Part shown: piece after piece, positions 1-3,000 of the stretch
How the letters are laid out: every line of letters starts with the position of its first letter
Position numbering within the stretch: position 1 is the stretch's first letter
Assembly (NCBI RefSeq): GCF_000026545.1
Contig: NC_011603.1
From: Escherichia coli O127:H6 str. E2348/69
Lineage (GTDB): Bacteria; Pseudomonadota; Gammaproteobacteria; Enterobacterales; Enterobacteriaceae
Direction: 5' to 3' (one strand)
Length of the DNA stretch: 64,000 nucleotides
Program-made: the position numbers

Positions 1-3000
1 TGATCACATAAGCTGTAGCAAGTAAATCATAAACTGTAACTGGTATACAATAAGCTGTGTTATGCAGAGGATATACTGTAATGAGCGAGTGATATAAACT
101 ACAGTGAGTATGCCCCCTGAAAGTTCATCAGGGTTGTGTATAAACTGAAGCCAGTTGTCTGGCGCTTTACAGGCCATCTAATGAAAAGAGTGGCTGCTTT
201 TATTCTTAAACTATCCACCGATCGGAGGCTATCTGGACAAGGACAATCTGGACATAAAAAAGCTGTTTGAAGAGGTGGATAAATCCTCCGGTGAAGTCGT
301 AAATCTTACACCTAATGCCAGTAATACAGTGCAGCCTGTGGCACTGATGCGGCTTGGGGTGTTTGTTCCCACGCTTAAATCACTGAAGAACAGCAAAAAA
401 AACACGCTTTCCCGGACTGATGCGACGGAAGAACTGACGCGCCTGTCTCTCGCCAGAGCCGAAGGTTTTGATAAGGTGGAGATCACCGGCCCGCGTCTGG
501 ATATGGATAATGACTTCAAGACCTGGGTAGGGGTGATTCATTCCTTTGCCCGCCATAAGGTTATCGGCGATAAAGTTGAGCTGCCGTTTGTCGAGTTCGC
601 CAAACTCTGCGGGATCCCCTCCAGTCAGTCATCACGTAAGCTTCGTGAACGTATAAGCCCCTCACTCAAACGTATCGCGGGTACCGTGATCTCATTTTCC
701 CGCACAACGGAAAAGCACACCAAAGAGTACATCACACATCTGGTGCAGTCGGCTTACTATGATACGGAAAAGGATATCGTCCAGCTGCAGGCCGATCCAC
801 GCCTGTTTGAGCTCTACCAGTTTGACCGGAAAGTGCTGCTGCAACTCAAGGCCATCAATGCCCTGAAGCGCCGGGAGTCTGCGCAGGCCCTGTATACCTT
901 TATAGAGAGTCTGCCACGGGATCCGGCGCCGATATCTCTGGCGCGTCTGCGGGCCCGTCTTAACCTGAAATCCCCTGTGTTCTCACAGAACCAGACGGTG
1001 AGGCGTGCCATGGAGCAGCTACGGGAGATTGGCTACCTGGATTACACTGAGATCCAGCGGGGACGCACCAAACTCTTCTGCATTCATTACCGCCGGCCCA
1101 AGTTAAAGCCACCTCATGATGAGAGTGCGGAGAACCCGCAGCTGCCAGCCACAACGGGTGATGTCAGCCCGGAAATGGCTGAAAAACTGAAGCTCCTCGA
1201 GAAACTGGGCATCACCCTTGATGACCTGGAAAAACTCTTCAAATCCCGCTGAACATAAGCTGTAGTGAGTAATCTGTCCCGGTTTACTTACTACAGCTTA
1301 TATTACTGCCTCTGGTGAGTGTTCTGCTCACTACAGCTTATATAAGCAGTGATGAGCGCAGCCCATACCGGAAACACTTCCTTCCTGATCCACAAGCCCT
1401 TCAGAATGGTATTCCTGTTACTGCCGGAGCCCTGCGGACCTGTCGTGTCCCTCATAAATCGTAATCTGCTCACTACAGCTTATGTTGCCTGCTACAGTTT
1501 ATTTCACTCACTACAGCTTATCTCAGGTAGGGTTTACTCACCACAGCTTATATAAACTGTAATGAGTGACGTTGTCACGTCAGAGGGGGGAGTGTCCGCA
1601 GGATCTGCGCGGCATCATGCCCGTCACCGGTGAACGGCACAGCCAGTGTGGCGGCCATGTCCAGCGCGAACACCCGCGTATACACCTCCATCGAGCGCGG
1701 ATCCTTGTGACCGGCCAGCGCCTGAATAACCTTCCGGGGCTGGCGGTGATAGAGCATGTGCATGATATAGCTGTGCCGGAAGGTATGTGGTGTGACCGGA
1801 ATCGAAAAATGCACGCCATCAGCTTCAGCCCGCTTCACCGCTTGTTTCAGCCAGTTGCGCATTGTCTCATCCGTGACCGGCCATAACGGCTCCCGCCGGC
1901 GGGGGCGGGTGGTCACCATCCAGCTCTCCATCTGACGCACAAAAGGGCGCAGACCATCCAGGTCGAAGGATTCCGGGGTGAGTGTCCGGGCTTCACCGAT
2001 ACGGATCCCGGTATTCCACATGGTGGCGAACAACATGTGGTGACGCTGGTCCGGCATATATCAGAGGAGGGCGCTCACTTCCGGTGCTAGGAGGTAAGCC
2101 GGCGTGGCACCTGTTGAGGTGGCCATCCGCCGGAGTGCCACCGCGGTCGCAAAATCAACGCCCGGGGCGATCGGCAATAACGAAACGCGTTCTGGTGAAT
2201 TCTGCAGGGGAATAATGTTGTTCATCGGCTATTTTTCACGTAGCGCACGCACTGGTCATGGATACAGTTATTCTGGCCTGAAAGGCCCGAACCTGCCATC
2301 ACAATAAATCGCAGCGCGCGGATCCTTTTGTTGTCTTATCCCGCATTATTGCGGGAAAAACCAAATGCGTAAAGGATCCTTTTTCTGCTCAAATCCTCCA
2401 TGAAGCCAGTCATGACGCGGGCTGAGGGCTGGTTTACGGTTTTTGGGAGAAATGGGGTAATGCCAGGAGTACCGGAAGTCAAATTCATGGGGATATTGAC
2501 TGTTTATGTACTGGGGGGGGACGGAAATATATAAAAAAAAAAGAAAAAAAGATTATTTTTTTTCTTGGTGCTTGCGTGTCTTTTTTAGTTTTAAGATTAT
2601 TCCGTGACCTATTAATACGGGGGTTTTATAAGGAAAACAGTTTTTATGGTTTCTAAAATCATGAATAAGAAATACGAAAAAGGTCTGTCTTTGATTGAAT
2701 CTGCAATGGTGCTTGCGCTTGCTGCCACCGTTACCGCAGGTGTGATGTTTTACTACCAGTCTGCGTCTGATTCCAATAAGTCGCAGAATGCTATTTCAGA
2801 AGTAATGAGCGCAACGTCTGCAATTAATGGTCTGTATATTGGGCAGACCAGTTATAGTGGATTGGACTCAACGATTTTACTTAACACATCTGCAATTCCG
2901 GATAATTACAAAGATACAACAAACAAAAAAATAACCAACCCATTTGGGGGGGAATTAAATGTAGGTCCAGCAAACAATAACACCGCATTTGGTTACTATC

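What the first reader, a model, noticed from the sequence alone, without database searches (positions are those of the whole stretch)
2513..2567. Cluster of homopolymer tracts (G8, A10, A7, T8) in the bfpA upstream regulatory region
About 80-130 bp upstream of the bfpA start codon there are four adjacent homopolymers. This is within or next to the AT-rich region that PerA uses to activate bfpA. Length changes would alter spacing or curvature between activator site and promoter, which is a classic route to phase or strength variation.
Basis: seen in the sequence. Interest (0 to 1): 0.4.

Follow-up and report, generated by a model that had tools for sequence, protein, structure and literature searches.

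The report
PerA-binding region of bfpA promoter
The four base runs are real, but three of them sit in the already-known AT-rich region where the activator PerA turns on the pilus gene bfpA in enteropathogenic E. coli, and isolate comparisons show inherited, fixed lengths rather than an on/off slippage switch.

Summary
G8 (2513-2520), A10 (2533-2542), A7 (2544-2550) and T8 (2556-2563) lie 83-133 bp upstream of the bfpA ATG (2646) on the EAF plasmid pMAR2 of EPEC E2348/69. It is the only such cluster in the 64-kb window.

With the conserved promoter (-35 TTGCGT 2572-2577, 17 nt, -10 GATTAT 2595-2600, inferred +1 near 2607), A10, A7 and most of T8 fall inside the published PerA-protected, activation-essential region. 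Its coordinates, about -84 to -46, are recalled from memory because the primary papers were not readable. G8 lies just outside it. The block resembles the perA promoter (22/29), and TAT-A10-G-A7-G is identical in a bfp-like operon only 79% identical over the aligned stretch.

The phase-variation reading is not supported:
- A7 and T8 are invariant in every credible intact bfp locus.
- G7/G8 and A9/A10 differences co-segregate with linked SNPs, so they mark lineages.
- Published BFP ON/OFF bimodality in this strain occurs with identical genomes.

T7, T9 and T6 variants turn up recurrently only where bfpA is cut by an IS. That suggests the tract can slip but is length-constrained where the operon works. 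This is an already known regulatory element, of low interest.

The parts
2513..2520 (+). G8 run, about -94..-87 from the inferred +1. Strain- and lineage-specific: G8 in E2348/69-type, G7 in a sister lineage and in O119:H6, interrupted GGAGGGG(G) elsewhere. It lies just distal to the PerA-protected region.
2527..2532 (+). (AT)3 dinucleotide repeat, (AT)2 in beta-type and E. albertii alleles. Distal part of the inferred PerA-protected region.
2533..2542 (+). A10 run, about -74..-65. It is A9 or A10 in credible assemblies, and the difference is lineage-linked.
2544..2550 (+). A7 run, about -63..-57. Invariant in length in all loci except one artefactual assembly. It is the core of the most conserved block (2540-2549 is invariant in all 15 aligned sequences, including a homologue only 79% identical).
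2556..2563 (+). T8 run, about -51..-44, at the promoter-proximal edge of the PerA region and 8 nt upstream of the -35 hexamer. Invariant where bfp is intact. T6, T7 and T9 occur in the IS-truncated lineage.
2523..2561 (+). Inferred PerA (BfpT) protected and activation region, -84..-46 relative to +1 near 2607. The footprint numbers are recalled from Ibarra 2003 and Bustamante 1998, which could not be read here.
   Evidence: inference; held papers
2572..2577 (+). Putative -35 hexamer TTGCGT (3/6 to consensus), conserved in all loci.
   Evidence: not flagged by the consensus scan because it is weak
2595..2600 (+). Putative -10 hexamer GATTAT, 17 nt after the -35. It is GAATAT in the distant homologue, keeping A2 and T6. 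The predicted start is near 2606-2608.
   Evidence: inference
2646..3227 (+). [quoted passage not shown]
17086..17125 (+). perA promoter block similar to the bfpA tract block (TAAATTTTT-A9-GCATAAAAG-TATTGATTTTT). The best ungapped 29-mer is 17095-17123 against 2534-2562, 22/29.
17176..18000 (+). perA, the AraC/XylS activator that acts on the tract region.

Best explanation
The A10-G-A7-GATTA-T8 block, with the (AT)3 just upstream, is the AT-rich operator through which monomeric PerA (BfpT), an AraC/XylS-family activator encoded about 14.5 kb downstream on the same plasmid, activates the weak sigma-70 bfpA promoter by contacting the RNA polymerase alpha subunit. The runs are part of the recognition and shape element: A/T-rich with a moderate predicted bend. 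They also set a fixed distance to the -35 hexamer, so their lengths are held constant by selection where the operon works. G8 is a neutral, lineage-specific run just outside the required region, about 40 bp from where conserved IncFIB backbone DNA ends. Shown here: the positions, the conservation pattern, the similarity to the perA promoter, and the population genotypes. Taken from the literature: PerA binding and the alpha-subunit contact. Inferred: the transcription start, and therefore the exact overlap with the footprint.
For: (1) Identity: the window is 100% identical to pMAR7 and pMAR2 of E2348/69 at the same coordinates. Coordinates quoted for NC_011603 in PMC8550237 supplements fall inside the genes here. 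(2) Held papers state that PerA binds a single 29-bp AT-rich motif upstream of the -35 of bfpA and perA as a monomer and needs the RNAP alpha subunit. (3) The best bfpA/perA ungapped 29-mer match is 2534-2562 against 17095-17123, 22/29; 3 of 200 shuffles reach that. (4) Conservation: 2540-2549 is the only 10-nt bin between 2470 and the -35 hexamer that is invariant in all 15 aligned sequences. The bfp-like operon on NZ_CP027551.1, 79% identical over the aligned stretch, keeps TAT-A10-G-A7-G exactly. It also keeps the same 20-nt distance from the end of A7 to CTTGCG although the intervening sequence differs. (5) A7 and T8 lengths are invariant in all credible intact loci. Exact-ORF look-ups give 76 contigs G7/A10/A7/T8, 13 G7/A9/A7/T8 and 43 E. 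albertii-type A10/A7/T8; the only further tract variants among the listed cluster members are given in the Against line. None of the +/-1 variants looked up from the ATG2460 start is in the collection. (6) The tract differences that do exist are linked to SNPs: every G7 locus examined from the alpha-1 lineage carries 3540 A>T, and the G7/A9 contigs carry 7 further linked SNPs. (7) T7, T9 and T6 occur on 17 of 218 contigs of the lineage whose bfpA is cut to 113-127 aa by an IS. T9 sits on at least 3 SNP backgrounds. Fisher P = 4e-4 against 0/132 intact, without correction for clonality.
Against: The primary footprint and deletion papers could not be read, so -84..-46 and -85 come from memory. 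The transcription start is inferred from hexamer geometry only. The published 29-bp register may differ from my best alignment: with the perA +1 given in PMC3958371, an alternative register, 2524-2552 against 17074-17102, scores 19/29 by hand. The regulator next to the distant homologue is only 35% identical to PerA, so conservation of A10-G-A7 may reflect a structural role rather than PerA-specific base contacts. A T7 variant on an alpha-lineage background exists as NCBI protein WP_088631511.1 (P0010), and an ambiguous shortened variant, P0011, is on 2 contigs. A G10 variant, P0006, is on one contig. The G8 genotype cannot be counted by the ORF method.
Confidence: 0.85

Rival explanations
1. 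One reading: the runs form a simple-sequence contingency locus. Slipped-strand mispairing changes the length of G8, A10, A7 or T8 at high frequency, which alters the spacing or phasing between the PerA site and the promoter and so gives heritable ON/OFF or graded BFP expression.
For: Length polymorphism exists. G runs of 7, 8 and once 10 are seen, plus 6 in one error-prone PacBio assembly. A9/A10 is dimorphic. T6-T9 occur in one lineage, with T9 on at least 3 backgrounds, so T8 can slip recurrently. T8 sits exactly between the conserved core and the -35, where a 1-bp change would alter spacing.
Against: A7 and T8 are invariant in all credible intact loci, and none of the +/-1 variants looked up is present among about 132 intact-lineage contigs. 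G7/G8 and A9/A10 co-segregate with linked SNPs, so they are single inherited events. T variants are confined to a lineage with IS-truncated bfpA, which fits relaxed selection. SMALL (BFP-ON) and BIG colonies of E2348/69 had identical genomes at high coverage, and the switch needs perAB, not bfpA (PMC5295817). The documented spontaneous genetic OFF events are a perA coding frameshift and plasmid loss (PMC8550237). G8 lies outside the inferred required region. Several apparent variants are assembly artefacts: L023 differs from the window only by -1 in four runs, and the NCTC PacBio loci L028-L030 carry indels scattered elsewhere in the compared stretch, frameshifting bfpA in L028/L029 and bfpB in L028/L030.
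Confidence: 0.07
2. The A/T runs act mainly as an intrinsically curved, H-NS-type silencing or thermosensing element, and PerA works as an anti-silencer rather than by sequence-specific activation through these bases.
For: Phased A/T tracts are present. A wedge-model bend peaks at about 23 degrees at 2540-2550, the 99th percentile of the window (parameters recalled from memory). The A10-G-A7 block is conserved next to a regulator only 35% identical to PerA. bfp expression is temperature-restricted.
Against: The PerA laboratory concludes that PerA is a positive activator and not an anti-repressor, and that it contacts RNAP alpha (PMC8058060). The predicted bend is moderate; 12 other sites in the window score higher. 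Strict length and sequence invariance of A7 is more than a generic curvature element would need.
Confidence: 0.1
3. T8, with the preceding ATTA, is an UP-element-like docking site for the alpha C-terminal domain, placed between bound PerA and the -35 hexamer.
For: Its position is about -51..-44. PerA-dependent transcription needs the alpha C-terminal domain. The run is invariant in intact operons.
Against: It matches the UP consensus at no more than 10 of 15 specified positions in any register within +/-3. The authors state that no UP consensus is present. In the distant homologue the T-run is T10 and displaced.
Confidence: 0.12

Closest known systems
PerA (BfpT) binding site of the bfpA and perA promoters (Ibarra, Villalba and Puente 2003; Bustamante et al. 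1998)
   Same: Same locus, same plasmid, same gene. It is an AT-rich single site upstream of a weak -35, is shared in part with the perA promoter, and has the activator encoded in cis on the plasmid.
   Different: Nothing substantive. What is added here is the tract-length census across isolates and the note that G8 is strain-specific and outside the required region.
AT-rich operators of other virulence AraC/XylS activators (ToxT toxboxes with T-tracts, Rns/CfaD, AggR, VirF)
   Same: A monomer-type AraC-family activator recognising a degenerate A/T-tract-rich site upstream of a pilus or adhesin promoter on horizontally acquired DNA.
   Different: The PerA site is reported as a single 29-bp motif rather than paired toxboxes. 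No sequence comparison with those operators was made here; the resemblance rests on general knowledge.
Homopolymer promoter contingency loci (Neisseria porA/opc poly-G/C in the -35/-10 spacer, Bordetella fim poly-C between activator site and -10, Mycoplasma vlp poly-A)
   Same: Homopolymers lie in or beside an activator-dependent promoter of a surface-appendage gene, and the T8 run sits between the activator core and the -35.
   Different: Within-lineage hypervariability and homoplasy are absent in intact operons. The runs are short. The host is mismatch-repair proficient. The known expression bimodality is non-genetic.

Membership tests
PerA operator of the bfpA promoter | Lies upstream of the bfpA -35 within the region reported as protected and required (about -84/-85 to -46) | tested here: met
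   With -35 at 2572-2577, -10 at 2595-2600 and +1 near 2607, the positions are A10 -74..-65, A7 -63..-57, T8 -51..-44 and G8 -94..-87. The start is inferred and the footprint numbers are recalled, not read.
PerA operator of the bfpA promoter | AT-rich motif of about 29 bp shared with the perA promoter | tested here: met
   22/29 identity, 2534-2562 against 17095-17123; 3 of 200 shuffles reach that. The perA block is conserved across 8 plasmids. The published register is uncertain.
PerA operator of the bfpA promoter | perA present on the same replicon | tested here: met
   perA is at 17176-18000, 274 aa and intact.
PerA operator of the bfpA promoter | Direct binding by PerA and loss of activation on mutation | not testable with these tools
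   Stated in held papers.
Simple-sequence-repeat phase-variable promoter | Tract length differs among very close relatives or recurs on different backgrounds (homoplasy) | tested here: not met
   In intact operons, G7/G8 and A9/A10 are SNP-linked and A7 and T8 are invariant. It is met only for T8 in the IS-truncated lineage.
Simple-sequence-repeat phase-variable promoter | Tract placed so that a length change alters promoter or activator geometry | tested here: inconclusive
   T8 lies between the conserved core and the -35. The 20-nt core-to-CTTGCG distance is conserved even in a homologue only 79% identical over the aligned stretch. G8 lies outside. The effect on expression was not measured.
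Simple-sequence-repeat phase-variable promoter | Expression ON/OFF states correspond to tract-length genotypes | tested here: not met
   By literature only: BFP-ON and BFP-OFF colony types of E2348/69 have identical genomes (PMC5295817). The genetic OFF events reported are a perA frameshift and plasmid loss.
UP element | Match to the -59..-38 consensus NNAAAWWTWTTTTNNAAAANNN | tested here: not met
   Best 10 of 15 specified positions. The authors report no UP consensus.

The most novel reading that the evidence does not exclude
T8, and perhaps A10, is an intrinsically slippery spacer whose +/-1 variants arise repeatedly in nature and change the spacing between the PerA site and the -35. On this reading, natural T7 and T9 (or A9 and A10) alleles would be heritable set-points or shut-offs of bfp transcription. 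They would be tolerated or even selected once the operon is damaged, and occasionally used in intact strains as a slow genetic dimmer on top of the epigenetic per switch.
Probability: 0.1. Interest if true: 0.4.

Novelty: already known. Interest (0 to 1): 0.15.

Why it matters
The bfpA promoter controls the bundle-forming pilus, the defining adhesin of typical EPEC. If these tracts were a contingency switch, that would add a genetic layer to a virulence bimodality now explained by a PerA feedback loop. The evidence here says they are not. They are the activator's landing site, and their length is conserved. The modest new points are three. Tract alleles behave as lineage markers. T8 slips recurrently only where bfpA is already dead. 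Several public assemblies mis-call these runs, so they should not be read as biological variation.

Tried and rejected
- Primary papers (Ibarra 2003, by DOI and by PMC154397): not held. Bustamante 1998 was not looked up. The footprint coordinates of both are therefore flagged as recalled.
- Searches for a mapped bfpA start: 'primer extension', the relA paper (it gives only the perA +1), and RIL-seq supplements. Nothing was found for bfpA.
- The consensus promoter scan found no + strand promoter, because the -35 matches only 3/6. This is expected for an activator-dependent promoter and is not evidence of absence.
- E. coli genomes holds only 6 bfp-positive genomes, all already in the plasmid set.
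- The metagenome pattern scan gave only 4 contigs.
- UP-element reading: rejected as a membership claim.
- Apparent variants rejected as artefacts: L023, with -1 in A10, A7, T8 and the bfpG T9 and no SNPs; NCTC PacBio loci L028-L030, with indels scattered elsewhere in the compared stretch, frameshifting bfpA in L028/L029 and bfpB in L028/L030; and A6-A8 in L010-L012, from one series of Korean assemblies, two of them with truncated bfpA.
- The literature search for bundle-forming pilus with homopolymeric phase variation returned only a general type IV pilus review.
- The wedge-model curvature gives only a moderate bend and uses parameters recalled from memory.

Full report
**What the sequence is.** The window matches E. 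coli plasmids pMAR7 (NC_010862.1) and pMAR2 of E2348/69 at 100% identity and at the same coordinates. Coordinates quoted for NC_011603 (pMAR2) in a published supplement fall inside the same genes here. ORF 2646..3227 is bfpA (bundlin; Pfam PF05307, 82 bits) and is followed by bfpG to bfpL. perA is at 17176..18000.

**Observation.** Reading one search gives these features:
- G8 at 2513-2520
- (AT)3 at 2527-2532
- A10 at 2533-2542
- A7 at 2544-2550
- T8 at 2556-2563

They lie 83-133 bp upstream of the bfpA ATG. Of the 58 runs of 7 or more bases in the window, this is the only place where four fall within 60 bp. Uniform placement gives P about 0.001. Mononucleotide shuffles of the intergenic stretch never give four, and a first-order Markov simulation gives 0.02.

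**Position relative to the promoter.** All 14 bfpA-type upstream regions retrieved keep CTTGCGTGTC, and AAGATTATTC 14 nt downstream of it. The best geometry is -35 TTGCGT (2572-2577), a 17-nt spacer, and -10 GATTAT (2595-2600).
- In a bfp-like operon only 79% identical over the aligned stretch, the -10 reads GAATAT and keeps A2 and T6. The alternative hexamer TAAGAT becomes TAAGAA there and loses T6.
- The -35 is weak (3/6), so the consensus scan did not flag it. A weak -35 is typical of activator-dependent promoters.
- I infer +1 near 2607.
- On that numbering the positions are: T8 -51..-44, A7 -63..-57, A10 -74..-65, (AT)3 -80..-75 and G8 -94..-87.

[quoted passage not shown] They also state that activation needs the RNAP alpha subunit. 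The exact published coordinates come from my memory of Ibarra 2003 and Bustamante 1998: protection at -84 to -46, and 85 bp upstream being sufficient. The look-ups for Ibarra 2003 failed and Bustamante 1998 was not looked up. If those numbers are right, (AT)3, A10, A7 and six of the eight T's are inside the protected region and G8 is just outside it.

**Independent support from the sequence.**
- The best ungapped 29-mer match between the bfpA and perA upstream regions is 2534-2562 against 17095-17123, at 22/29. Shuffles average 18.5, and 3 of 200 reach 22.
- With the perA +1 given in PMC3958371, a second register (2524-2552 against 17074-17102) scores 19/29 by hand. It may be the published one. 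Either register places A10 and A7 inside the site.
- Conservation is sharpest over the tracts. The bin 2540-2549 is the only 10-nt bin between 2470 and the -35 hexamer that is invariant in all 15 aligned sequences.
- The distant bfp-like operon on NZ_CP027551.1 keeps TAT-A10-G-A7-G exactly. It also keeps the same 20-nt distance from the end of A7 to CTTGCG, although the intervening bases differ (AGTAAAAAG plus T10).
- Its neighbouring AraC-type regulator is only 35% identical to PerA. Part of this conservation may therefore be structural rather than PerA-specific.
- A rough wedge-model calculation predicts a moderate bend over 2540-2550, at the 99th percentile of the window (parameters recalled from memory).
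- The UP-element consensus is matched at 10 of 15 positions at best. This agrees with the authors' statement that there is no UP element.

**Are the tracts variable among isolates?** I tabulated 14 plasmid loci, 4 metagenome contigs and 12 contigs found by exact BfpA and BfpG look-ups.
- A7 and T8 are 7 and 8 everywhere except L023.
- L023 differs from the window only by -1 in A10, A7, T8 and the T9 inside bfpG, with no SNP. That pattern indicates homopolymer under-calling.
- A10 is 9 or 10 in credible assemblies.
- Values of 6-8 occur only in three assemblies from one Korean series.
- G8 is G7 in a sister lineage and in O119:H6, and is interrupted (GGAGGGG) in all other alleles.

**A wider census through a spurious ORF.** An ORF starting at ATG2460 reads through the tracts when the G-run is 7 or interrupted. 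Exact-protein look-ups of that ORF therefore count contigs by tract genotype.

| Lineage | Genotype | Contigs |
|---|---|---|
| Intact, alpha | G7/A10/A7/T8 | 76 |
| Intact, alpha | G7/A9/A7/T8 | 13 |
| Intact, E. albertii type | A10/A7/T8 | 43 |
| bfpA truncated by an IS | A9/A7/T8 | 201 |
| bfpA truncated by an IS | T9 | 8 |
| bfpA truncated by an IS | T7 | 8 |
| bfpA truncated by an IS | T6 | 1 |

- None of the +/-1 variants I looked up for the intact lineages is in the collection.
- The exceptions are one NCBI protein equivalent to T7 (P0010), one ambiguous shortened variant on 2 contigs (P0011), and one G10 contig (P0006).
- In the truncated lineage bfpA is cut to 113-127 aa by an IS3-family element.
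- That lineage shows no A-run variants.
- T9 sits on at least three SNP backgrounds, so it arose more than once.
- The contrast of 17/218 against 0/132 gives Fisher P = 4e-4.
- This test ignores clonality, and it depends on ORF calling.
- The G8 genotype cannot be counted this way.

**Lineage marker or switch?**
- Every G7 locus examined from the alpha-1 lineage carries the linked substitution 3540 A>T, and the two G8 loci differ from the window at no position.
- The G7/A9 contigs share seven further linked SNPs and an IS-truncated bfpB.
- These are inherited alleles, not recurrent slips.

**Published evidence on switching.**
- BFP and per ON/OFF bimodality in E2348/69 occurs between colony types with identical genomes at high coverage. 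It requires perAB and does not require bfpA (PMC5295817).
- The documented spontaneous genetic OFF routes are loss of pMAR2 and a perA frameshift, described as loss of one T in a run of eight T (PMC8550237 and supplement).
- perA frameshifts are also typical of atypical lineages (PMC4594896).

**Conclusion.** The three A/T runs are parts of the known PerA operator of the bfpA promoter. Their lengths are conserved where the operon is functional. The G-run is a neutral lineage marker next to that operator. What remains open is whether the T8 slips seen in the truncated lineage have any regulatory consequence. I give that reading about 10%.

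Noticed in passing
window 17490-17500 (A11) and 17353-17360 (T8), both inside the perA CDS: The A11 run in perA is A10 or A9 in several plasmid records, which truncates PerA to 118 aa or less. One of these is another E2348/69 pMAR2 assembly (NZ_CP059841.1, L040), and some may be long-read errors. A published spontaneous perA frameshift in E2348/69 delta-hfq is loss of one T in 'a stretch of eight T'; T8 at 17353-17360 is the only run of eight T in the perA CDS. Coding homopolymers in perA are a better candidate for genetic BFP-OFF switching than the bfpA promoter tracts.
   Followed up: partly
window 21677-22255 (- strand) and its upstream region 22256-22350: This is a second bundlin-family ORF of 192 aa (Pfam Bundlin 27.7 bits). 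Residues 10-66 are 47% identical to BfpA. Its AT-rich upstream region (T6, (TA)3, T7) has the highest wedge-model curvature in the window and contains, in inverted orientation, GATATATAAAAAAG, which resembles the distal part of the bfpA PerA region. A published supplement labels this stretch as an intergenic region of NC_011603.
   Followed up: partly
L015 (NZ_CP027551.1 108040-108699), with NZ_CP039405.1 and NZ_CP070230.1: A divergent bfp-like type IV pilin operon, 79% identical over the aligned stretch, keeps TAT-A10-G-A7-G identical and at the same distance from the -35. Its linked AraC-type regulator is only 35% identical to PerA.
   Followed up: partly
L032-L039, L005, L006, L016, L018 (EAF-type plasmids with truncated bfpA): This is a widespread lineage (more than 200 contigs) in which bfpA is cut to 113-127 aa by an IS3-family element. 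It is the only lineage where T6, T7 and T9 variants of the promoter T-run were found, and T9 sits on at least 3 SNP backgrounds.
   Followed up: yes
window 2946-2952 (G7 in bfpA), 2925-2931 (A7 in bfpA), 3290-3298 (T9 in bfpG): There are homopolymers inside the bfpA and bfpG coding sequences. The only length changes seen there are in assemblies that look error-prone (L023, L029).
   Followed up: partly
window 2400-2472: Homology to more than 1000 IncFIB-type plasmids of Klebsiella, Escherichia, Citrobacter and others ends at about 2472. Conserved backbone DNA therefore stops only about 40 bp upstream of G8, and the whole bfpA control region is at most about 170 bp of bfp-specific DNA.
   Followed up: no
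window 1575-2057 and 2061-2225 (- strand): The phage-integrase-family gene between repA and bfpA is split into 160-aa and 54-aa ORFs here. It is a single 246-aa ORF in other EAF-type plasmids (L032, L049), so it is probably a pseudogene in E2348/69.
   Followed up: no
window about 20200-23300 compared with NC_010862.1: pMAR7 carries a Tn3-family transposon at 20233-23958 that the window lacks. The window is therefore the unmarked pMAR2 rather than pMAR7.
   Followed up: partly
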